A stretch of DNA of 64,000 bases from a virus, in IMG/VR virus record IMGVR_UViG_3300037459_000226, positions 1 to 64,000 of that record; one strand, given 5' to 3'. The notes below the pieces were generated by a model, which saw only the letters and a list, made by a program, of their open reading frames with translations, ran no database searches and was not told the origin of the DNA. A program made the translations under genes and the position numbers. Shown here in pieces: positions 1,573 to 11,594 of this stretch. How positions within the stretch are numbered: position 1 is the stretch's first letter; the number at the start of each line of letters is the position of its first letter.

Positions 1573-2182
1573 TCTCGTGCGTGTCCGGCGGCTCCACGGT
1601 TCGAAAATCCGATCGATCCAGCTTGAGTACGTGGCGAATCACATCCTCTTTTTTGCTCTTTCGATCATTGAGTTCGTCATCTGTCAAATCAGACAGGGGA
1701 CGCGACGCGGCTCCGCTTTCTGTCGACTTTATGGCGAGACGGAATGCCAACTCGATATGCTTCGCGCGGATCTGACCGCCAGGCTTCGCTGCAATGTAAT
1801 TGCCCATCCACAACTGGGCGAATCCGGTAGGACCACCAACAATCGACAGGAGGGATTCCCAGAGATCGGCAACATGACTCACCGAACCGTCATGGCCACG
1901 GACGCCTGCATCCAACAGAGCATCGAGTGCCTGGATCGCCTGCTCGTCGAGTCGAGCGAGAACCTTCACGGCATGCTCTGGTAACTTTCCTCTCGCCGAT
2001 GAACAGGTCTTGCATTTTCTGTTGAGTCCTCCGCGCTTGGTCGAGTCGCGGTTGAAGAACTCGGGCGTCCAGGAAAACGTCTGCTTGCAACCGTTGCAGA
2101 ACATTTTCTCGACCGGCGGCTCAAGACCGTCATCGCGCGGAGCAACCGCTACGGCCACTTCAGGTTCGTGAGACACAGGCAT
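1556..2182 (-). CDS. Zn-finger protein directly upstream of terL; putative terminase small subunit
   Basis: CxxC...CxxC (CNGC, CKTC) followed by a helical domain; overlaps the terL start; TerS call is positional only. Confidence 0.5.
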   Translation of the reverse strand: MPVSHEPEVAVAVAPRDDGLEPPVEKMFCNGCKQTFSWTPEFFNRDSTKRGGLNRKCKTCSSARGKLPEHAVKVLARLDEQAIQALDALLDAGVRGHDGSVSHVADLWESLLSIVGGPTGFAQLWMGNYIAAKPGGQIRAKHIELAFRLAIKSTESGAASRPLSDLTDDELNDRKSKKEDVIRHVLKLDRSDFRTVEPPDTHENVRAS

Positions 2183-3704
2183 GTTTCTCCTGCTTGCGCG
2201 CGACCCAGAAGGCACCGTGCTGATCTTCCGCGTAGACCATGAAGTCTTTGCCAAACCAGTCTTCGACAGCTTCGGTGACGCTCCGCAAGCGTACGACGTG
2301 GTAGTCGTGGCCGATCATCACGCCGCCCTCGCGGAGAGCTGGCCACCACGCCTTGATGTCCGACTGAACGGCGGAAAACTCGTGGTCGGCGTCGATGAAG
2401 ACCACGTCGAATGTCGGAGACACGCGAGACATCAGAGGGCCAATATCCAGCGACGATCCTTCGTGCAGAGCCCATTTCGATTGAGGCGCACCCCCGACCA
2501 TGCGGTCGATAAACTGCTGGCGAATGTTTTCGCGTCCACCGGATTCAGTCACGAGAATGCTCGTCCAGTCTCCGGGGTTGCCCATGAAATGATCGACGCA
2601 GATGAGATGTTCGACCGCGGCAGAGTTGGCAATTTCCAATGAGGTCTCGCCGATCCAGACGCCGATCTCTGCGACTTTGATTGGGCGGTCGAGCCGCTCG
2701 GCTTCGCCATCAAGGAACTTCAGAAGGGCTGCGCGATGCTCCGGGTACATCTCGCATGTCGGCTTGTCGCCGTTGTCGTTCGGTTTGACGACTGGAGTCG
2801 CAGGTCGGTGAACCGGCAAGCCGGCGATCCCGAGCCGCTCCGCGTTGTCCGCAGGAAACTCGATCAGCCGCTCGTCGCTGTCCGGTCTCCGGATCGCGTC
2901 CTTGAGCTGGTCGCAAACCTGATCGGCGGACGTCATGTGGGGCTTGCCGACACACCAAACCTTGAGGTGTCCTGCCCAGCTCGACCACGCGATCTTGAGC
3001 GGGTTGTAGCCGAGCTGCGCAATGACCGCCTGACTCAGATTGCGAGTGTTCTGGACGTCTTCGGTCGAGCACTTGTCCGATTCAGTGTCGTCGGTCCACT
3101 CGTACCGGAAGTACGGAGGCTTGATGTAATCGAACACCCGCATGTCGTAGGCGATCAGTCCCGTCGCGGCTGCCGCAGCGTCATGCAGTCCGCCCAGGAC
3201 GGCTGCCTCTTCCCGCGTATACTGCTCAAGGCTGAACTTCGTCGGGTCGTTCATCTTGTTGCGCCACCGGAACGCGAAGATGTTCTCGTGCGGCGGGCAA
3301 CCCCCGTAGGGAGCGGCGATGACGAGCGGACCCTTGGCGTGATGCTCGTAGATCGCGTTGAAGGCCACGTCGAAGAAAGGCTGTGCGTCATCGACCTGCC
3401 CGGCGGCCGCTGCGGGGCCAAGATGACAATCGGGGGCCATGTCTGAATCGACCATCACGAGAATGTCGGCCCCGCTCTGCTGCGCCGCCTTGACGGCCCG
3501 GTTGCGCGTCATCGTGATCGGGGTATCGGCGAACGACTGCACGATAATGTCACCGTCGATGCGGTCGACGAATTCCGGCGCGGTCTTCAGGCGGAAAACC
3601 AGCGGGGTGAACCAGCGCGTGACGTCGTAGACCATCGACGTGCCGGTGCTGTTCCCCGTGTAGGGGAAGAAGGCAAACATCACGCTGAGTTTTGTCGGGG
3701 TCAC
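2160..3704 (-). CDS. Fused GT-A glycosyltransferase and class I SAM methyltransferase (Methyltransf_24-like)
   Basis: N-half: ITMTRNRAV..ILVMVDSDM (DxD), ATGL, STED. C-half: VAEIGVWIGETS, CVDHF, FDVVFIDADH, GGVMIGHDY. Confidence 0.85.
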   Translation of the reverse strand: MTPTKLSVMFAFFPYTGNSTGTSMVYDVTRWFTPLVFRLKTAPEFVDRIDGDIIVQSFADTPITMTRNRAVKAAQQSGADILVMVDSDMAPDCHLGPAAAAGQVDDAQPFFDVAFNAIYEHHAKGPLVIAAPYGGCPPHENIFAFRWRNKMNDPTKFSLEQYTREEAAVLGGLHDAAAAATGLIAYDMRVFDYIKPPYFRYEWTDDTESDKCSTEDVQNTRNLSQAVIAQLGYNPLKIAWSSWAGHLKVWCVGKPHMTSADQVCDQLKDAIRRPDSDERLIEFPADNAERLGIAGLPVHRPATPVVKPNDNGDKPTCEMYPEHRAALLKFLDGEAERLDRPIKVAEIGVWIGETSLEIANSAAVEHLICVDHFMGNPGDWTSILVTESGGRENIRQQFIDRMVGGAPQSKWALHEGSSLDIGPLMSRVSPTFDVVFIDADHEFSAVQSDIKAWWPALREGGVMIGHDYHVVRLRSVTEAVEDWFGKDFMVYAEDQHGAFWVARKQEKHACVSRT

Positions 3705-5675: not shown

Positions 5676-6803
5676 TTACGCAACGGTTTCGAACTTCAGC
5701 ATGTTGCGCGGCGTGCCGAACTTCAGGTTCGACAACGTGTAGACGACCGCGTTGTAGGCTTGGGTGAAGATGTCGTACACGGGGCCTTCAGGAGTCAGGA
5801 AATCACTCTCCCGGCAGCGCATCTCGACATCGTTGTAGTTCATCCCGTATCCGGTTCCCGTCGGGACACCGGCCTCCCAAGACACCTCGACGCCATCGAA
5901 GTTGATCACCTGGCGGAAGCCGAAGTTCGGCAACGAGTAGGCGCCCGCCCCGCGCCCGATGATGAGCCGCTCCTTGTCGTCGAGGACGTTGAGCAAGACT
6001 TCGTATTGGTCACGCGCGAGAAAGATGTTGGTGATCTGCGCATTCTGCGAGGCGTTCCGCTGACAGGTGATGATGCCGTAGCGCAGCGCTTCGTCGAGTG
6101 CGGATGCAAACGCCGTGTGGGCCAGATGGACGATAATCGGAGTCCAGAAGTCAAACTGGCTGTCAGCGATACCGTCCGGCCAGATGGCACCGCTGGCGTT
6201 CTCGCCGCCGTGAGCCGCGCCCAACTCGATGTTGAGACCGGCGTAGGTGCCCTCCGGGAAAGCCACCTTGTCGGCGGCGTTCACCGAGCGCGAAGTTCCA
6301 TCCGTGATGTTGACGGTGTTGCCGCTGTGCTGGAACACGGAATCGAACCCGTGCCAGAACTTGGAGTTCGCGCTCGTCTCGCCGTCGATGTAATACTGGC
6401 GCCCGAGTGCGTTCTGCATCGAACCGGTCAGCCGACCCGTGAACCCATTGAAGACGTTGATGATCGCTTCGGGTCCGCGGTTGGCCAACAATTCCGCTCG
6501 ATAGATCGCGTCGGTCGTCTGGTAGCCGCGGTACGGCAGGCTCGCGGTGTCCCAGATGTTCGTCTGGGCGAAGTTGCGAACCGTGCGGCCCGTATTTCCT
6601 TCGACATCGTGGTAACGAAACTGGACCGGCCAGTCGAAACCGTTGCCCCCGAGAGACTTGAGAATGCGTCCGGTGGCTTCGAGCAGCGCACCCATTTGGT
6701 AATTGCGAACCATCGACGGTTCGACCTGCCGGATGTGCTGGGCGAGCGTGGTGTGCAGCGGACGCTGCCAAGCAACCGGATCGTACCCCTTATAGGTCGT
6801 CAT
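5676..6803 (-). CDS. Major capsid protein (HK97 fold)
   Basis: 375 aa after a scaffold-like gene; spine-helix-like segment ending YYIDG; GF...INFDGVEV..E.GVP.G.GY; C-terminal SNL..G.PR. Confidence 0.85.
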   Translation of the reverse strand: MTTYKGYDPVAWQRPLHTTLAQHIRQVEPSMVRNYQMGALLEATGRILKSLGGNGFDWPVQFRYHDVEGNTGRTVRNFAQTNIWDTASLPYRGYQTTDAIYRAELLANRGPEAIINVFNGFTGRLTGSMQNALGRQYYIDGETSANSKFWHGFDSVFQHSGNTVNITDGTSRSVNAADKVAFPEGTYAGLNIELGAAHGGENASGAIWPDGIADSQFDFWTPIIVHLAHTAFASALDEALRYGIITCQRNASQNAQITNIFLARDQYEVLLNVLDDKERLIIGRGAGAYSLPNFGFRQVINFDGVEVSWEAGVPTGTGYGMNYNDVEMRCRESDFLTPEGPVYDIFTQAYNAVVYTLSNLKFGTPRNMLKFETVA

Positions 6804-6824: not shown

Positions 6825-8417
6825 TCAGATTGGCAGGCCGGCCGCCTGCATGTTTTGAATCAGCAAATTGCCGGCGTCCAAATGCTGGTTTTGGGGAACC
6901 ATCGTCGGGTTTTCCGGAGCCGGGAAGCTGCCCCCTCGATCCGGTTGGTACGTTGCCAGGAACTCACGTTTGCGCGCATCGGCAGTCTGATCCAGTAAGG
7001 CCTGCGCTTGCGGATTCGGGTACGAGACCGGAGCGGGGTAGTTCGCAGGCGCTGGATATCCGGAGGCCGTCAACGGGCCCGTCGGCGGCGGGGGGGTCAG
7101 ATGTCTGAAATCAGTCGCCGGTAATGCTTGTGCCGGTGGCGCGGCTGGCGCGTGTCCGTTGCCGTTCGCCGGTGCTGGTGCGCCGGTTTCATTCGTGAAT
7201 TTCGCCATCGCGTAGTCCCAGGCATCCTGCGACCCGAGACCTTGCTTTTCGAGATAGTCGACATGCCCAAGGATCTGTCGACCGGCCGGGCTGACGACCC
7301 GCTCATTCGTCAGCGGGTCAATCGCGACCTGTCCCGTGCGAGGATCTTGTTGGAACAACAGCCCGCCGTGCTCGTCCGCGATACCTTTCTCGAACGCATC
7401 GAAGTCTCGATCGGCGAGAGCCTGCTTAACCATCTCGCTGACCATCGGCATCACGGTCTGCTTGATGATCGGCGGCAGAACTTCTTGAGGGCGCTGCACC
7501 AAGTTTTCCGCCCACGCATCGATGTAAGACTGTCTGGAGTCGAATGCGTGCTGGAGTTCAAGCGGCGTTCCGGTCTTCCACCCGAATGTTTTGCCATCGG
7601 GATCCATGACTCGTTGTCGGCTGACGGCGTGTTCGTCCAAGGCCGGCGGATTCCACCACGAATCCTGCGGAACTCCCGCTTGGGGCGCGGCAAACTGCTG
7701 TTGCGGCGCGACGGCCTGTACTCCGGGCTGCGCAACGCCTTGCGCGACCTGCGCCGCGCGCCATGCCTGAAATGCCGGGTCGCGTATCAGGCTGTGATGA
7801 TCGGCGGCGGTTTGTTCCATCGGTTGAAGACGCTGAACCTGATCGGTCAACTGCCGGTGTTGATCTTGTCCGGTTTCAAACGCCTCCAAAAGCCTTTGAA
7901 CGCCATCCGCGTCGTTCGTGATGTTCGTGAAACCAAGACCGGCGAGCCGATCCACAAACTGGGAGGCAGGGACCGGCCCACCGGTTGCCGGTAGCGACGG
8001 CGCGGGCGGCGGTGTCTGTCCGGGCGGAACTGGCGCAGGCGGCGCGGACGGAACTCCCTGTCCTGGAACCGGCTGATAGGTTGGCTGCCCGGCCACCGGC
8101 TGCGTCGGCTGCGCGGCGGGCTGGAGTGGCGGCTGAACTTGAGCGGGACCCAGCGGATTCGCCGCCGGATACCCTGGTTCCGGCGCCGTGGGAGCAGCGA
8201 TGCCTACGCCGAGAAACTGTTCAAGACCACCCTCTGCGGGCGGCGCCGGCGCAACGCCCGGCATCGGTCCGGACGGCATGCTCGGCTGAGTGAGGGACGG
8301 TACAACAGGCGACGGGGTGTACTGCGGGGCAGCGGGCGCAAGGGGAGCGGCGGGGGGCATGAGGGCAGGCTGCAGGGCCTGAACGGGCTGTGCAAAGACC
8401 GGCTGATTGGTTGGCAT
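6825..8417 (-). CDS. Probable capsid scaffolding protein (P/A/Q-rich)
   Basis: Low-complexity and helical; directly upstream of MCP; GGAGG RBS before ATG 8417. Confidence 0.7.
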   Translation of the reverse strand: MPTNQPVFAQPVQALQPALMPPAAPLAPAAPQYTPSPVVPSLTQPSMPSGPMPGVAPAPPAEGGLEQFLGVGIAAPTAPEPGYPAANPLGPAQVQPPLQPAAQPTQPVAGQPTYQPVPGQGVPSAPPAPVPPGQTPPPAPSLPATGGPVPASQFVDRLAGLGFTNITNDADGVQRLLEAFETGQDQHRQLTDQVQRLQPMEQTAADHHSLIRDPAFQAWRAAQVAQGVAQPGVQAVAPQQQFAAPQAGVPQDSWWNPPALDEHAVSRQRVMDPDGKTFGWKTGTPLELQHAFDSRQSYIDAWAENLVQRPQEVLPPIIKQTVMPMVSEMVKQALADRDFDAFEKGIADEHGGLLFQQDPRTGQVAIDPLTNERVVSPAGRQILGHVDYLEKQGLGSQDAWDYAMAKFTNETGAPAPANGNGHAPAAPPAQALPATDFRHLTPPPPTGPLTASGYPAPANYPAPVSYPNPQAQALLDQTADARKREFLATYQPDRGGSFPAPENPTMVPQNQHLDAGNLLIQNMQAAGLPI

Positions 8418-8531
8418 TGTTCTACCTCCGGTCAATGGGTAGACTGCCGCCTGTCAAAGAAAGGTGCGACTTCTTCCGATTTCTTCCGGTTTCGCATGAC
8501 TGCTGGAATCACAAATAATCACGTCGACCCA

Positions 8532-8744
8532 ATGGCTCTCCTCAACACGGAGACGGTTGTGACGATGGATCAGTTGGGTCGTCGAGTGAAGCGGAGCGTC
8601 AAAACAATCATGTTGTGGATGGTGGCTGGCCGGAAGCGCAAGCGTGACGGCAAGCTCTGTTCGCTCCAGTTCGTCGATGAAGGCGGACGGATTACTACGA
8701 GCATGCAGGCCTACGAGCGCTTCATCCGGGAGTTGAACGAGTGA
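8532..8744 (+). CDS. DUF1580-like small winged-HTH (excisionase-like) protein
   Basis: SVKTIMLWMVAG...L....EGGRITTSMQAYERFI matches the DUF1580 pattern typical of Planctomycetes. Confidence 0.7.
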   Translation: MALLNTETVVTMDQLGRRVKRSVKTIMLWMVAGRKRKRDGKLCSLQFVDEGGRITTSMQAYERFIRELNE

Positions 8745-9001
8745 GTGAACGACAACAGATCAGCGCCATCGAGCGCGACTGCGGTTACTGCCCGATCATG
8801 GTGACGTACAAGTATCGCTGTTCGTATTGCGACTGCGTGTTCGACAAAGAAGAACAGGAGGGTCGCAATTTTATCGGCTTCCTCAGTCCGGGGTACGCTC
8901 AGTCCATCGGTCATCTCCCGGTTGGGTGGAGTTGGTACGGGTCGAGCCTCGTCTGCCCGAAGCACGAGATTGTGGTTTACGATCGGGAGTTGAACGGATG
9001 A
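8741..9001 (+). CDS. Small Cys-rich hypothetical protein
   Basis: CxxC motifs; GTGA coupling to the upstream gene. Confidence 0.6.
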   Translation: MSERQQISAIERDCGYCPIMVTYKYRCSYCDCVFDKEEQEGRNFIGFLSPGYAQSIGHLPVGWSWYGSSLVCPKHEIVVYDRELNG

Positions 9002-9168
9002 GCGACGATGTCGAAGAGCGCGGCCGTCAGGTCAAGGCGCGTCAGGACTTCACCTTGTATGCCAGCACGGTGATGAACCCTGATTTGTCATGCGTGACGC
9101 TGCCAGAGGACGAACCACCTGGACCGTTTCGAGATCAGTTGATCCGTGACGGACTCATCCGGATCTGA
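8998..9168 (+). CDS. Small hypothetical protein
   Basis: ATGA overlap with the upstream stop. Confidence 0.55.
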   Translation: MSDDVEERGRQVKARQDFTLYASTVMNPDLSCVTLPEDEPPGPFRDQLIRDGLIRI

Positions 9169-9309
9169 CATCCGGGTTGACAACCCACTGCGGTCGTGAA
9201 AGGATGCGGTCCGCTTCGGATCAAAGCGAAACACCAAAGCGCGCCAGCGCAACGGTTTGAAAGGCCACACGTTGATCCGAGCGTGTGGCCTTTCTCTTTG
9301 GACTCAGCG

Positions 9310-9522
9310 ATGTCCGGCACATCGAAACAGCTTGTCTTCCCGCCGCGGCCCGACCGCGAGCTGACGGAAGAGGATGTCGAGTTGCTCCAGACGGTCGATC
9401 CGTATGGGATTCTCAATGCGGGGAAGATCCCTGATTTCGATCCCGAGACAGAGAAACTCGTCGTGACATACACTTTTTCCCTGAATCCGCGATCCTACGG
9501 AGTTTACAGACGTGCCGACTGA
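9310..9522 (+). CDS. Small protein resembling the MCP C-terminus (about aa 321-371)
   Basis: EDVEL..PDFDPETE..VVTYTFSLNPR vs MCP NDVEM..PVYDIFTQ..VVYTLS..TPR; start could be as far upstream as 9196. Confidence 0.55.
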   Translation: MSGTSKQLVFPPRPDRELTEEDVELLQTVDPYGILNAGKIPDFDPETEKLVVTYTFSLNPRSYGVYRRAD

Positions 9523-9808
9523 CAGACGGGGATTCCTGACGGCCCTTGTGGCCGCTCCACTGGCCGTTGCGGTCGGCGTCAAGCTACCGGTGGCACCGAT
9601 TGCCGACGGGTTGTACCCCGGCTTCTTTGGCCCGAAGCTCGCATACGACCCGGACCTCTGGCCGATGGGAGATTCGGACGTCTGGTATGACCCCTACGAC
9701 TTTAGCGAACCGATTCTGCTGGACGTCGAGCCGTGCAACGGGGAATGGCTCGCCACAATTGAGTCCAGCGGCGTCCTCAAGGAGCTGATGAATGCCGGCC
9801 TCACGTAG
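9512..9808 (+). CDS. Tat-signal protein carrying an MCP-like segment (aa 180-245)
   Basis: TDRRGFL plus hydrophobic stretch; DGLYPGF..LWPMG..D..YDFSEPILL vs MCP EGTYAGL..IWPDG..D..FDFWTPIIV. Confidence 0.7.
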   Translation: MPTDRRGFLTALVAAPLAVAVGVKLPVAPIADGLYPGFFGPKLAYDPDLWPMGDSDVWYDPYDFSEPILLDVEPCNGEWLATIESSGVLKELMNAGLT

Positions 9809-10055
9809 AGACTTCCTGAGAGCAACGGTCTTCGGGCCTATCGCCGCTGCGGTGGGGATCAAGCTGGCTCCGGCGGGCCGGGTGTTCCAGAAGGTATTGA
9901 AGTTGCAGGCCATGACGGCCTCAACCGCCGGCGTCGGGCGTCAGTCGGCACCGTTGACGGTGGCCGAAGTGGAGCGAGCGTTTTCCTTGAATCCCGGCGT
10001 CTTTCGCCTGAAGTATCACGGCGAATTCACGTTCCCCAAGCCGGATCGCATCTGA
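9792..10055 (+). CDS. Tat-signal small protein
   Basis: SRRDFLR plus h-region; AGGAG RBS; shares FSLNP with the 9310 product. Confidence 0.7.
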   Translation: MPASRRDFLRATVFGPIAAAVGIKLAPAGRVFQKVLKLQAMTASTAGVGRQSAPLTVAEVERAFSLNPGVFRLKYHGEFTFPKPDRI

Positions 10056-10294
10056 TGCCTGAAATCAGCCGACGCGGCCTGTTCCGAGCCTTGATCGCGG
10101 CCCCGATTGCGGTGGCTGTCGGGAAACCGCTGCTGGCGACTGGCGACTGGCCGGTCAAGTGGACCGTCGGGAAAGTGACCAGGGTCGCCAATCTGTCGAG
10201 AGAAGAAATCTGCGCGCTGTATGAACAGAAGATCGACAGAATCGTGGCGAGCATGCAGTCATGCTTCAATCAGGATTTCACCGATCAGTCTTGA
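10055..10294 (+). CDS. Tat-signal protein carrying MCP-like segments (aa 57-60 and 107-137)
   Basis: SRRGLFR plus h-region; DWPV; ANLSREEI..RIVASMQ vs MCP ANRGPEAI..RLTGSMQ. Confidence 0.7.
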   Translation: MPEISRRGLFRALIAAPIAVAVGKPLLATGDWPVKWTVGKVTRVANLSREEICALYEQKIDRIVASMQSCFNQDFTDQS

Positions 10295-10309
10295 CAGGAC
10301 GCCGCCCTG

Positions 10310-10513
10310 ATGACCGACCGTCGTTATGACTGTCCCAAGTCAATTCAACGCATGCTCGTCAGCCGCAGAGCCGAAGAAATCGTGAGGAGCCATCGGTTGC
10401 TCCATTTGCTCCAGGCGAAGGGGCGAATCCAATTCTCGACCTGTAGCGACTCAACGCTCCGCGGGTTTGCCGGCGAGAAAGGTCTTGACAGGAAGCCGGC
10501 GGCGTCGCAATGA
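10310..10513 (+). CDS. Small protein resembling the MCP N-terminus (aa 7-50)
   Basis: YDCPKSIQRML..IVRSHRLLHLLQAKGRIQFS vs MCP YDPVAWQRPL..MVRNYQMGALLEATGRILKS. Confidence 0.65.
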   Translation: MTDRRYDCPKSIQRMLVSRRAEEIVRSHRLLHLLQAKGRIQFSTCSDSTLRGFAGEKGLDRKPAASQ

Positions 10514-10520
10514 TGCTTGA

Positions 10521-10598
10521 CGTCCCGTCAGACAACACAATCTAGCCGCCCATTTGGGTGAAAAAGACCGCATTCTCTGACGGGACGCGGTCTTTTTT
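10521..10598 (+). promoter_or_regulatory. Terminator/anti-terminator-type leader upstream of the HNH genes
   Basis: CGTCCCGTCAGA (10521-32) is complementary to TCTGACGGGACG (10576-87), which lies in the loop of hairpin AAAAAGACCGC/GCGGTCTTTTTT; TTGACA at 10485. Confidence 0.6.
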
Positions 10599-10615: not shown

Positions 10616-11098
10616 GTGTCGGCCAAGGCGAAGAAACCGAAGCGGCGGTCAAAAACTGCTGCCCAACTATGGCGAGAGCGTCATCGTCGGGTAATCAACA
10701 ACCTCGGACCGACCGACATGGTCGAGCGCCGCAGAACACTCTCGGATCTCGGCTTCGACAACTACCGCCATTTCCTGATGAGTGCAGGCTGGAAGGCCGT
10801 TCGGGAAACCATGCTGAATCGCTGGAGTCGAACCTGCAAAGGCTGTCGTCAACCGGCAATCCAAGTGTTTCCCCAGGATTACAGCACCGCCACATTGAGT
10901 GGGCAGCAACCGAATAAACTCGTCGTCTGCTGCAATCGCTGCCATTCCTTCATCTTTGGAAAACGCACTCGTTACAAAGTGAAAATCGACCACGAGTGGG
11001 GAATCCAGTTCTGTCGGTGTGGTGCGCTCGCTCCGTTTAAGAAGATTTTGTGTTCCAAATGTCGTCGGGAGGCTCGGCGTGTCTCAGAACTTCGTTAG
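10616..11098 (+). CDS. Degenerate HNH-endonuclease-like protein with C-terminal Zn finger
   Basis: Y..FL.S..W...R....CKGC..A.QV(FP instead of HH)..Y....CNRCH. Confidence 0.65.
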   Translation: MSAKAKKPKRRSKTAAQLWRERHRRVINNLGPTDMVERRRTLSDLGFDNYRHFLMSAGWKAVRETMLNRWSRTCKGCRQPAIQVFPQDYSTATLSGQQPNKLVVCCNRCHSFIFGKRTRYKVKIDHEWGIQFCRCGALAPFKKILCSKCRREARRVSELR

Positions 11099-11594
11099 CG
11101 GTCTGCTGAGCTACGAAAAATTTTTCCGAAGTCTCCGGAAGTTTTTCAAGCAGGAGGGGGTTTCTGAATCTCACGTTGCCGCTGTGATAGAGTGTCTGCC
11201 GAAGATCAGGGAGCAGATCCAAGCGGCAACAAATCTCAGTCGAAACCGCGTCGCTCGGATCAAATCGGAGGAGCGTTCCGAAGCAAGGCGTCGCCGGAAC
11301 ATCAAGCCGATCGCTTCCCAAACATTTGTTCATGGCATGGTGCCGTACCAGAGACGAAACAAGTTGTTGAGCGAGATGCGGTTCGGTTCATACGCGGAAT
11401 ACCTCGAATCGGATCTCTGGAAAGAAATCAGGAATCGCGTATTGATCCGCGACGGACTGAGATGTAGAGTCTGCGCGTCGGAAGCAACTCAGGTTCACCA
11501 TAAATCGTATGATCGTTGCGTACTGGCGGGGGAATCAATTGATCAGTTGATTTCGATCTGTGAAACGTGCCACGAGGCAATCGAGTTTGGGTAG
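11019..11594 (+). CDS. HNH endonuclease, 5' part (truncated by the inserted element)
   Basis: YAEYLESDLWKEIR..RDGLRCRVC..ATQVHHKSY..ICETCH; stop codon supplied by the element TIR; start uncertain. Confidence 0.8.
   Translation: MVRSLRLRRFCVPNVVGRLGVSQNFVSGLLSYEKFFRSLRKFFKQEGVSESHVAAVIECLPKIREQIQAATNLSRNRVARIKSEERSEARRRRNIKPIASQTFVHGMVPYQRRNKLLSEMRFGSYAEYLESDLWKEIRNRVLIRDGLRCRVCASEATQVHHKSYDRCVLAGESIDQLISICETCHEAIEFG

What the first reader, a model, noticed from the sequence alone, without database searches (positions are those of the whole stretch)
9310..10513. Operon of small proteins that each resemble a different piece of the phage's own major capsid protein
Seen (manual alignment to MCP 5676-6803): ORF 10310 matches MCP aa 7-50 (YDCPKSIQRML vs YDPVAWQRPL; IVRSHRLLHLLQAKGRIQFS vs MVRNYQMGALLEATGRILKS, 9/20 identical). 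ORF 10055 has DWPV (aa 57-60) joined to a gapless match with aa 107-137 (8/31 identical, including AN, E.I, R, SMQ), the probable spine helix. ORF 9512 matches aa 180-245 (G.Y.G, WP.G..D, [YF]DF..PI, L.E....G). ORF 9310 matches aa 321-371 (DVE, P.[FY]D..T, YT.S, PR). The four pieces are non-overlapping, lie in reverse N-to-C order, sit in an operon divergent from scaffold-MCP, and are intact, closely packed ORFs. This does not look like a single decaying second MCP gene. Established: several anti-phage systems are triggered by MCP (CapRel-SJ46, Lit), and satellites use capsid-binding proteins to interfere with assembly. Inference: a capsid-fragment array acting as decoys for capsid-sensing immunity, or as dominant-negative poisons of capsid assembly in co-infecting relatives. 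I know of no described system like this.
Basis: partly seen in the sequence, partly recalled or inferred. Interest (0 to 1): 0.93.

Follow-up and report, generated by a model that had tools for sequence, protein, structure and literature searches.

The report
Export-tagged mini-proteins with capsid-like pieces
An uncultured marine-sediment phage carries a five-gene operon of tiny orphan proteins: three share a twin-arginine (Tat) export-type leader, and three resemble conserved pieces of the phage's capsid protein weakly but more than chance predicts, a combination I found in no paper and whose purpose is untested.

Summary
The ORFs are real. Four of five have good coding statistics, and two are present in an RNA library. 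The claimed capsid (MCP) likeness is only partly confirmed.

Scored against an MCP-family profile, o10055, o10310 and o9512 are the three best of the window's 53 small genes. They beat shuffles, column-shuffled profiles and about 2900 real protein pieces. Three other conserved family profiles show no such clustering. Plain pairwise similarity is no better than window-wide background, hhalign probabilities are low (13%, 2.4%, 0.5%), and the core motif of o10310 is promiscuous.

This note missed the strongest feature. o9512, o9792 and o10055 are paralogous only in a 25-residue Tat-type leader (BLASTP E 4e-7 to 3e-5; TIGR01409 scores at or near its cut-off), so their cargo probably goes to the cell envelope. 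That does not fit a simple cytoplasmic decoy.

All five genes are orphans and related phages lack them. The scan has noted the same pairing (Tat leader plus a piece of the phage's own capsid) in at least nine other phage genomes. Those are AI leads and were not tested here.

Verdict: a real operon with a probably real (about 50%) but very diverged capsid-piece likeness; its function is unknown.

The parts
5676..6803 (-). Major capsid protein (375 aa), the reference for all comparisons
   Evidence: phrog_9953 major head protein E 9.6e-10. NF033394 capsid_maj_Podo E 4.6e-22. 379 homologues, the closest 58% identical.
6825..8435 (-). Putative scaffolding protein (536 aa, with a Pro/Ala/Gln-rich N-terminal third), immediately upstream of the MCP gene
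   Evidence: Its position, and tblastn matches to the gene upstream of MCP in related loci. No family hit. The role is inferred.
9259..9303 (+). Perfect 13-bp hairpin followed by a T-rich tract, 7 nt before the start of o9310. Terminator- or attenuator-like left boundary of the operon.
   Evidence: Inverted repeat I5. Fold energy -33.3 kcal/mol, z -4.4.
9310..9522 (+). o9310, 70 aa, acidic, no leader. Orphan with no MCP likeness.
   Evidence: Coding log-odds +12.5. SW p 0.70, no profile hit, hhalign P 0.26. An RNA-library contig is identical to 9312-9462.
9512..9808 (+). o9512, 98 aa. Tat-type leader at aa 1-27 (DRRGFL followed by 17 uncharged residues, then AVA). The acidic cargo carries WPMGDSD (aa 50-56, nt 9659-9679) and YDFSEPILLDVE (aa 62-73, nt 9695-9730), which resemble the MCP motif WPxGxxD..YDFxxP (profile positions 205-225).
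   Evidence: TIGR01409 scores 17.9 bits in the six-frame search (over the 16.7 cut-off) and 16.4 bits as a protein. Profile hit 2.6 bits, shuffle p 0.0005. Chain score 20.0 bits. Coding log-odds +28. RNA contig at 9631-9781.
9792..10055 (+). o9792, 87 aa. Tat-type leader (SRRDFLR followed by 13 uncharged residues) and a basic cargo with no MCP likeness.
   Evidence: TIGR01409 16.6 bits against a 16.7 cut-off. Leader BLASTP E 4e-7 to o9512. SW p 0.97, no profile hit. A strong AAGGAG ribosome-binding site lies 7 nt upstream.
10055..10294 (+). o10055, 79 aa. Tat-type leader at aa 1-30 (SRRGLFR followed by 12 uncharged residues). The cargo is two collinear MCP-like segments: aa 31-42 DWPVKWTVGKVT (nt 10145-10180) resembles profile 56-67, and aa 45-75 (nt 10187-10279) resembles profile 106-136, the predicted spine helix. 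Profile positions 68-105 are absent.
   Evidence: Traceback: 17.0 + 19.4 bits. Chain score 27.4 bits; 0 of 2924 control pieces and 0 of 400 shuffles reach it. BLASTP gives two collinear HSPs. MCP helix 113-134 appears only in a low-confidence model.
10310..10513 (+). o10310, 67 aa, basic, no leader. aa 17-44 (nt 10358-10441) resemble the MCP N-terminal helix (profile 23-50). Coding status is uncertain.
   Evidence: Profile hit 6.6 bits, E 2e-4 at Z=1, 0 of 2000 shuffles. hhalign probability 13%. Coding log-odds -1.5. The motif also matches MCP consensus 273-286 and an SDR motif.
10288..10304 (+). First copy of a 17-nt direct repeat, GTCTTGACAGGAnGCCG. The second copy is at 10482-10498. The two copies bracket o10310.
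   Evidence: Family D1, 16/17 identical. The exact 16-mer pattern occurs only at these two places in the window.
10521..10597 (+). 15-bp-arm hairpin followed by a run of six T. Terminator-like right boundary of the operon.
   Evidence: Inverted repeat I4. Fold energy -37.5 kcal/mol, z -3.6.

Best explanation
Shown: the stretch 9310-10513 is an accessory transcription unit of five tightly coupled small orphan genes. It lies divergent from the scaffold and capsid genes, and hairpins bound it on both sides.

Shown: three of its products (o9512, o9792, o10055) share only a 25-30 residue N-terminal leader. That leader has the twin-arginine (Tat) signal features: S/D-R-R-x-F-L, a 12-17 residue uncharged stretch with a proline, and AxA/AxG sites.

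Inferred: their unrelated 50-70 residue cargo domains are exported by the host Tat pathway or anchored in the membrane facing outward.

Shown statistically but weakly: two of these cargos carry short, very diverged copies of the most conserved segments of this phage lineage's major capsid protein. So does the leaderless o10310.
- o10055 has the DWPV strand at the base of the E-loop plus the spine helix.
- o9512 has the WPxG..YDFxxP motif.
- o10310 has the N-terminal helix.

Inferred and untested: these are capsid-surface mimics. They would fold in the cytoplasm, bind something that normally recognises those capsid segments, and sequester or remove it at the Tat translocon or membrane. Candidates for that partner are a host capsid sensor, the scaffolding protein, or capsid protein of a co-infecting relative.

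o9310 and o9792 are companions of unknown role.
For: Genes are real:
- Codon log-odds are positive for 4 of 5 ORFs and negative for the overlapping antisense ORFs.
- Stop and start codons overlap and ribosome-binding sites are present.
- Two contigs from an RNA library of a different study are 100% identical to parts of o9310 and o9512.

Leader:
- BLASTP E values between the three leaders are 4e-7, 4e-7 and 3e-5.
- TIGR01409 scores are 17.9, 16.4 and 16.6 bits against a 16.7 cut-off.
- The ESM Atlas neighbours of o9512 include TAT_signal, Rieske-TAT and hydrogenase small-subunit clusters.
- A regex for the leader finds these three ORFs and nothing convincing in the rest of the window or in 1.35 Mb of related loci.

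MCP likeness:
- Family-profile hits have E 2e-4, 3e-3 and 5e-3 at Z=1, and they persist when the phage's own MCP is left out of the profile.
- Shuffle p <= 0.0015 for each.
- 2 of 2924 real control pieces reach 2.0 bits.
- Combined Fisher statistic 39.5, against a maximum of 21.8 in 150 column-shuffled profiles.
- In a six-frame scan of the whole window the two best non-MCP hits are o10310 and o9512.
- By chained profile score, o10055, o10310 and o9512 are the top 3 of 53 small genes, and o10055 exceeds all 2924 controls.
- The operon is not enriched for three other conserved family profiles.
- The DWPV stretch lies within GFDWPVQ, one of the two stretches that the locus-finding tool chose as most conserved in the MCP alignment.

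Prior: earlier notes of this scan describe the same pairing in at least nine other phage genomes. These are AI leads, not evidence.
Against: - hhalign gives low probabilities: 13%, 2.4% and 0.5%.
- Pairwise similarity to the phage's own MCP is no better than the window-wide background. Best-of-200 MCPs for shuffled o9512 reaches the observed score in 1 of 60 trials.
- The core motif of o10310 is promiscuous and its coding status is doubtful.
- Two of five ORFs show no likeness at all.
- All five are orphans among 5.8 and 1.8 billion proteins. No conservation, dN/dS or profile-profile test is therefore possible.
- Related phages have no such genes.
- There is no DNA similarity to the MCP gene.
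- The finding was selected post hoc. After the harshest correction (about 49 clusters times about 40 reference proteins) my estimate of p is only about 1e-3 to 1e-1, depending on the score used.
- Export is not shown: o10055 fails TIGR01409, and o9792 and o9512 sit at the cut-off.
- The structure models were uninformative.
Confidence: 0.45

Rival explanations
1. The anatomy is the same (an accessory operon with three Tat-leader paralogues), but the capsid likeness is a chance result found by post-hoc search. The proteins are ordinary fast-evolving phage accessory factors that act in the cell envelope, for example in superinfection exclusion, receptor masking or lysis timing, like T4 Spackle or RI.
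For: - Pairwise similarity is at background level and hhalign probabilities are at most 13%.
- The o10310 motif is promiscuous.
- o9310 and o9792 show no likeness.
- All five are orphans.
- The operon lies in a plastic island next to HNH genes and a lower-GC segment.
- Relatives have other, unrelated small divergent ORFs at the same position.
Against: - The top 3 of 53 small genes against the MCP profile all fall in this one operon, and no such clustering appears for three other family profiles.
- 0 of 150 column-shuffled profiles and 0 of 2924 control pieces reach the observed scores.
- Earlier notes of this scan describe the same combination elsewhere (AI leads only).
Confidence: 0.38
2. One reading: a cytoplasmic array of four capsid fragments. 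They would act as decoys for capsid-sensing immunity (CapRel, Lit) or as dominant-negative poisons of capsid assembly in co-infecting relatives.
For: Three ORFs resemble non-overlapping MCP segments. o10310 has no leader and could stay in the cytoplasm. That capsid proteins trigger several defence systems is established knowledge and was not tested here.
Against: - Two of the three MCP-like ORFs carry an export-type leader.
- The fourth fragment (o9310) is not supported.
- The likeness is to family-conserved positions, not specifically to the phage's own MCP, which ranks 51-154 of 200.
- No binding or defence test was possible.
Confidence: 0.08
3. A precursor-peptide cassette (RiPP- or bacteriocin-like): a conserved leader with hypervariable cores, processed by a modifying enzyme or transporter.
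For: The leaders are conserved, the C-terminal parts are unrelated, and the genes are tandem. There is a faint class III lanthipeptide hit on o9792, E 0.029, below its cut-off.
Against: - No modifying enzyme, protease or ABC exporter lies nearby.
- The cores are 50-70 aa with 0-2 Cys and are not Ser/Thr/Cys-rich.
- The leader fits the Tat consensus far better.
Confidence: 0.03
4. Remnants of a decayed or rearranged second capsid gene.
For: Several MCP-like segments lie within 1.2 kb.
Against: - The ORFs are intact, coupled and have good coding statistics.
- The pieces run in reverse N-to-C order on the coding strand.
- Unrelated sequence and three copies of a leader lie between the pieces.
- There is no DNA similarity.
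- The six-frame profile scan shows no further MCP-like segments on either strand.
Confidence: 0.01

Closest known systems
Twin-arginine (Tat) signal peptides and substrates (TIGR01409, PF10518), including uncleaved Tat signal anchors (Rieske proteins) and 'hitchhiker' export of leaderless partners (for example the hydrogenase small and large subunits)
   Same: An N-terminal S/D-R-R-x-F-L motif, a 12-17 residue uncharged stretch and small residues at -3/-1. HMM scores are at the curated cut-off. The language-model neighbours are Tat-signal families.
   Different: The genes are phage-encoded, and the cargos are tiny (50-70 aa), cofactor-less orphans. Three tandem genes share the leader but not the cargo. 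I found no phage-encoded Tat substrates in a 2026 Tat review or in full-text searches. Export was not tested.
Gol peptide of T4 gp23 and the Lit protease; CapRel(SJ46) sensing of the major capsid protein (established knowledge, recalled, not read here)
   Same: A short segment of a major capsid protein is enough to be recognised by a host factor. This makes stand-alone capsid pieces plausible ligands or decoys.
   Different: In those systems the fragment is part of the full capsid protein or is made artificially, and sensing is cytoplasmic. Here the pieces are separate natural genes, and two of them carry an export-type leader. No sensor is known for this phage or its host.
Capsid-assembly mimics of satellites: SaPI1 CpmB mimicking the C-terminus of the 80alpha scaffolding protein, and P4 Sid (established knowledge, recalled)
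   Same: A small protein copies a short interaction segment of a head-assembly protein and so competes for a binding site.
   Different: Those mimic scaffold or form an external cage, act in the cytoplasm, and belong to satellites that parasitise a helper phage. Here the phage itself encodes look-alikes of its own capsid protein, with export leaders.
Periplasmic small phage proteins with signal peptides: T4 antiholin RI (PMC8385771, abstract seen) and T4 Spackle (recalled)
   Same: Small (<100 aa) non-structural phage proteins sent to the periplasm early in infection. This is the default functional analogy if the capsid likeness is chance.
   Different: Those are not described as Tat substrates. 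RI has a cleavable signal peptide (title and abstract). They are single genes rather than a leader-sharing tandem family, and they have no capsid likeness or sequence similarity to these ORFs.

Membership tests
Tat signal peptide (TIGR01409 / PF10518) | Twin-arginine motif close to S/T-R-R-x-F-L-K near the N-terminus | tested here: met
   The motifs are DRRGFLT, SRRDFLR and SRRGLFR, at residues 4-11 of the three proteins.
Tat signal peptide (TIGR01409 / PF10518) | An uncharged hydrophobic stretch of about 12 or more residues after the RR motif, then small residues at -3/-1 | tested here: met
   There are 17, 13 and 12 uncharged residues, followed by AVA/AAA and AxG sites, read from the sequences. 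The regex finds only these three ORFs.
Tat signal peptide (TIGR01409 / PF10518) | HMM score at or above the curated cut-off | tested here: inconclusive
   TIGR01409 cut-off is 16.7 bits. o9512 scores 17.9 bits in the six-frame search but 16.4 as a protein. o9792 scores 16.6 and 14.5. o10055 gives no hit. PF10518 scores 12.8 bits against a 22.7 cut-off for o9512 only.
Tat signal peptide (TIGR01409 / PF10518) | Tat-dependent export or membrane insertion in a host that has TatABC | not testable with these tools
   The host is unknown (marine sediment metagenome) and no experiment was possible.
HK97-fold major capsid protein family of this phage lineage | Full-length similarity or fold | tested here: not met
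   Only 12-31 residue segments align. There are no hits to any capsid family in PHROGs, Pfam or NCBIfam. These ORFs are not capsid proteins; at most they are look-alikes of pieces.
HK97-fold major capsid protein family of this phage lineage | Segment similarity to the family profile above controls | tested here: inconclusive
   Met nominally for o10055, o10310 and o9512. Not met for o9310 and o9792. hhalign probabilities are at most 13% and the pairwise level is at background.
The scan's 'Tat leader + own-capsid-piece' phage mini-protein family (earlier AI notes; not in any paper I found) | Sequence relatives among such proteins in other phages | tested here: not met
   There are no homologues in 5.8 or 1.8 billion proteins, in IMG/VR or in metagenome contigs. 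No look-alike stretch appears in the scan's index. Only the architecture is shared.
RiPP / bacteriocin precursor cassette | A modifying enzyme, leader protease or dedicated exporter in the neighbourhood | tested here: not met
   The neighbours are small orphans, HNH endonucleases and the scaffold and MCP genes.

The most novel reading that the evidence does not exclude
The Tat-leader capsid-piece proteins are a counter-defence or exclusion device that works by eviction. Each mimic would fold in the cytoplasm and capture a protein that recognises that capsid surface, either a host capsid sensor or the capsid or scaffold subunits of a rival phage. The Tat leader would then drag the complex to or through the translocon ('hitchhiker' export in reverse use), or pin it to the membrane. 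This operon would be one instance of a widespread, undescribed phage gene class that the scan has noted in several unrelated phages.
Probability: 0.15. Interest if true: 0.9.

Novelty: new variant of a known kind. Interest (0 to 1): 0.6.

Why it matters
If the capsid likeness is real, phages encode stand-alone, export-tagged copies of the most conserved surfaces of their own capsid protein. That would be a new kind of molecular mimic. It bears directly on how capsid-sensing immunity is evaded, or on how rival phages are excluded. It would also give the Tat pathway a role in phage-host conflict that I could not find described.

Even if the likeness is chance, a tandem family that shares only a Tat-type leader is a rare, clean example of phage accessory proteins aimed at the cell envelope. 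It is easy to test with leader-reporter fusions.

The case also shows how weak by-eye similarities behave under proper controls: one of the four claimed pieces disappears, and three survive.

Tried and rejected
I could not fetch the 56-66 kb contigs of the closest MCP relatives by protein, and I could not test binding of any mini-protein to MCP or scaffold.
- Close relatives: none in IMG/VR or GTDB genomes with the single MCP, none among cultured phages by protein or DNA, and none in metagenome contigs with o9792. The only variant seen is a 1-residue difference in o9792 on a 12-kb contig, so dN/dS could not be computed.
- Homologue searches for o9512, for o10310 and for the three-leader profile found only the query proteins themselves (and the 1-residue o9792 variant above). 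The o10310 hits were a repeat-derived junk ORF and a dehydrogenase motif.
- AlphaFold2 models were too poor to use or to search with: o9512 alone had pLDDT 43, and MCP with 20 sequences had pLDDT 36.
- PDB sequence searches gave only signal-region noise.
- The ESM Atlas search for o9310 was uninformative.
- Rfam and tRNA scans of the window were empty.
- The DNA comparison of o10310 with the MCP 5' end gave p 0.77.
- RNA run X2 covers only two 151-nt pieces as contigs. The absence of cover elsewhere says nothing, and DNA carry-over in that library cannot be excluded.
- A decayed second MCP gene and a RiPP cassette were both considered and rejected on anatomy.
- The o9792 match to the N-terminus of the 514-aa protein at 2160-3704 (SW p 0.002) is within the window-wide background.
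Full report
**What is there**

The window is 64 kb of a 75.5-kb virus record with direct terminal repeats, from a marine sediment metagenome. The 375-aa ORF at 5676-6803 (-) is a major capsid protein (MCP). It hits phrog_9953 with E 1e-9 and NF033394 capsid_maj_Podo with E 5e-22. It has 379 homologues, the closest only 58% identical, mostly from marine metagenomes, and none among cultured phages. A 536-aa putative scaffold gene lies just upstream of it.

Small genes run divergently from these two, on the + strand. The finding's stretch holds five of them:

| ORF | Coordinates | Length |
|---|---|---|
| o9310 | 9310-9522 | 70 aa |
| o9512 | 9512-9808 | 98 aa |
| o9792 | 9792-10055 | 87 aa |
| o10055 | 10055-10294 | 79 aa |
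| o10310 | 10310-10513 | 67 aa |

The stop and start codons of the first four overlap, and o9792 has a strong AAGGAG ribosome-binding site. A perfect 13-bp hairpin with a T tract ends 7 nt before o9310. A 15-bp-arm hairpin with a run of six T follows o10310.

A codon log-odds model trained on eight long genes favours o9310, o9512, o9792 and o10055 (+12 to +28) over the overlapping antisense ORFs. o10310 is ambiguous at -1.5. An RNA library from a different study holds two 151-nt contigs identical to 9312-9462 and 9631-9781. This is a weak hint of expression.

**The strongest feature, missed in this note**

o9512, o9792 and o10055 share an N-terminal leader of about 25 residues of the form MPxxRRxFLxAxxxxPxAxAVG. 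BLASTP E values between them are 4e-7, 4e-7 and 3e-5. Their C-terminal parts are unrelated to each other, with p > 0.1.

The leader has the features of a twin-arginine signal. TIGR01409 scores are 17.9, 16.4 and 16.6 bits against a cut-off of 16.7; o10055 gives no hit. The ESM Atlas neighbours of o9512 include TAT_signal, Rieske-TAT and periplasmic hydrogenase small-subunit clusters. A regex for such leaders finds exactly these three ORFs and nothing convincing in the rest of the window or in 1.35 Mb of related loci. The cargos are therefore probably exported or anchored facing the periplasm. This is inferred, not shown.

**Is the capsid likeness more than chance?**

The quoted identities are real. 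Against the phage's own MCP they are unremarkable:
- Shuffle p values are 0.002, 0.05, 0.05, 0.70 and 0.97.
- In an all-against-all control of 53 small and 40 large genes of this window, the operon-MCP combination is not in the top 15 of 1960, and the o10310-MCP pair ranks 8th of 2120.
- hhalign against a 20-sequence MCP alignment gives probabilities of 13%, 2.4%, 0.5%, 0.2% and 0.2%.

On this evidence alone I would have called it chance.

Family-profile tests tell a different story. I built an HMM from 200 MCP homologues.
- o10310, o9512 and o10055 score 6.6, 2.6 and 2.0 bits, with E at Z=1 of 2e-4, 3e-3 and 5e-3. They hit profile positions 25-50, 203-224 and 106-136. o9310 and o9792 score nothing.
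- The hits persist when the phage's own MCP is left out of the profile. The likeness is to family-conserved positions, not to the phage's own sequence, which ranks 51-154 of 200.
- Each hit beats its own shuffles at p <= 0.0015.
- Only 2 of 2924 real 80-aa pieces from long ORFs reach 2.0 bits, and 0.25% of 17,614 six-frame segments of related loci do.
- The combined Fisher statistic is 39.5, against a maximum of 21.8 for 150 column-shuffled profiles.
- In an unbiased six-frame scan of the whole window, the two best non-MCP hits are o10310 and o9512.

A chained profile score, which allows one long jump, gave these results:

| ORF | Chain score | Matched segments | Controls |
|---|---|---|---|
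| o10055 | 27.4 bits | aa 31-42 DWPVKWTVGKVT to profile 56-67, plus aa 45-75 to profile 106-136 | No control piece or shuffle reaches it |
| o10310 | 22.6 bits | aa 17-44 to profile 23-50 | 16 of 2924 pieces reach it at jump cost 9 bits, 0 at 12 bits |
| o9512 | 20.0 bits | WPMGDSD and YDFSEPILLDVE to profile 205-225 | 70 of 2924 pieces reach it at 9 bits; 28 reach its 19.2-bit score at 12 bits |

These three are the top 3 of the window's 53 small genes. With profiles of three other conserved families of this lineage, the top hits are scattered and the operon is not enriched. The signal is therefore specific to the MCP.

Several caveats remain:
- The finding was chosen post hoc. With the harshest correction (about 49 clusters times about 40 reference proteins) my estimate of p lies between about 1e-3 and 1e-1, depending on the score used.
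- The core motif of o10310, LLHLLQAKGRIQFS, also matches MCP-consensus positions 273-286 (9 of 14 identical), a dehydrogenase motif and a junk repeat ORF. Its 'N-arm' assignment is therefore not unique.
- Best-of-200 MCPs for shuffled o9512 reaches the observed score in 1 of 60 trials.

**Relatives and context**

All five genes are orphans. In 80 related viral loci there is no homologue of any of them and no small ORF with capsid likeness near the head genes. Five near-complete relatives have no small Tat-leader ORF. Several relatives do have unrelated small divergent ORFs upstream of the scaffold gene, so this is a plastic accessory position.

HNH endonuclease genes and a lower-GC segment lie downstream. 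There is no DNA similarity between o10310 and the 5' end of the MCP gene. The pieces run in reverse N-to-C order on the coding strand, so a decayed second capsid gene is excluded.

**Earlier notes of this scan**

After I had formed the 'probably chance' reading, a look-up showed that the scan has noted the same pairing in at least nine other phage genomes: a Tat-type leader joined to a short piece of the phage's own capsid protein. Follow-up agents called this an undescribed family. None of those stretches resembles my ORFs in sequence.

These are AI leads, not evidence. They raised my prior and prompted the chained-profile and specificity tests described above, and those tests came out in favour of a real signal. 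Full-text searches found no paper that describes phage Tat-leader proteins with capsid pieces.

**Mechanism**

Shown:
- The operon and the leader paralogy.
- The statistical likeness of three cargos to distinct conserved MCP segments.

Inferred:
- The leader directs Tat export or membrane anchoring.
- After a cut at the A-T-G site, mature o10055 would begin exactly at the DWPV strand. It would consist of that strand plus a spine-helix look-alike, with the E-loop part missing.

Speculative:
- The cargos mimic capsid surfaces. They would bind a partner that recognises those surfaces and take it to the translocon or membrane.

If the likeness is chance, the default reading is envelope-directed accessory proteins of the kind exemplified by T4 RI or Spackle.

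**Verdict**

I put about 0.45 on real capsid-piece mini-proteins with export leaders, 0.38 on chance likeness in envelope-targeted accessory proteins, and the rest on the minor rivals. Two tools that could have helped, the look-up of encoding contigs and complex prediction, were closed.

Noticed in passing
window 10288-10304 and 10482-10498: A 17-nt direct repeat, GTCTTGACAGGAnGCCG (16/17 identical), brackets o10310. The first copy ends 5 nt before its ATG and the second lies inside its 3' end. It may be a promoter element (it contains TTGACA) or the scar of an insertion that brought o10310 in.
   Followed up: partly
window 10485-10597: A promoter-like site (TTGACA, 18 nt, AATGAT; 10 of 12 matches) is followed within 10 nt by a long hairpin (10521-10587) and a run of six T. 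This could be a short transcript or an attenuator between the operon and the HNH genes.
   Followed up: partly
window 9463-9522 and 9972-10040: o9310 and o9792 share a C-terminal FSLNP motif followed by aromatic residues (SW p 0.013). This is the only similarity between any two cargo or leaderless parts of the operon.
   Followed up: partly
window 9897-10052 versus 3558-3695 (-): o9792 aa 36-87 aligns with aa 4-49 of the 514-aa methyltransferase-containing protein at 2160-3704 (shared VFRLK, EF and DRI; SW 48, p 0.002). This is within the window-wide background of 2120 pairs.
   Followed up: partly
window 10616-11594: Two overlapping HNH-endonuclease-like ORFs, 10616-11098 and 11019-11594 (phrog_119, E 2e-3 and 1e-8). 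They lie in a segment of lower GC (0.55) and poor codon fit, so the DNA is probably foreign or mobile.
   Followed up: partly
window 7980-8435 (-): The N-terminal ~150 residues of the putative scaffolding protein are an extreme Pro/Ala/Gln-rich low-complexity region. Scaffold genes of relatives are about 395-420 aa.
   Followed up: no
loci L001 4280-5217, L027 6540-7558, L037 5521-7139: Related phages also have clusters of 3-5 small ORFs on the opposite strand, within a few kb upstream of the head genes (in L001 and L027 directly before the scaffold gene). They have no sequence similarity to this operon, no Tat-type leaders and no capsid likeness, so this region is a recurrent slot for variable accessory genes.
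   Followed up: partly
window 8496-9168: A separate upstream unit of three small orphan genes (82, 86 and 56 aa). The second has CxxC...CxxC zinc-finger-like cysteines. A 22-nt direct repeat spans two of the gene junctions (8727-8748 and 8984-9005).
   Followed up: no
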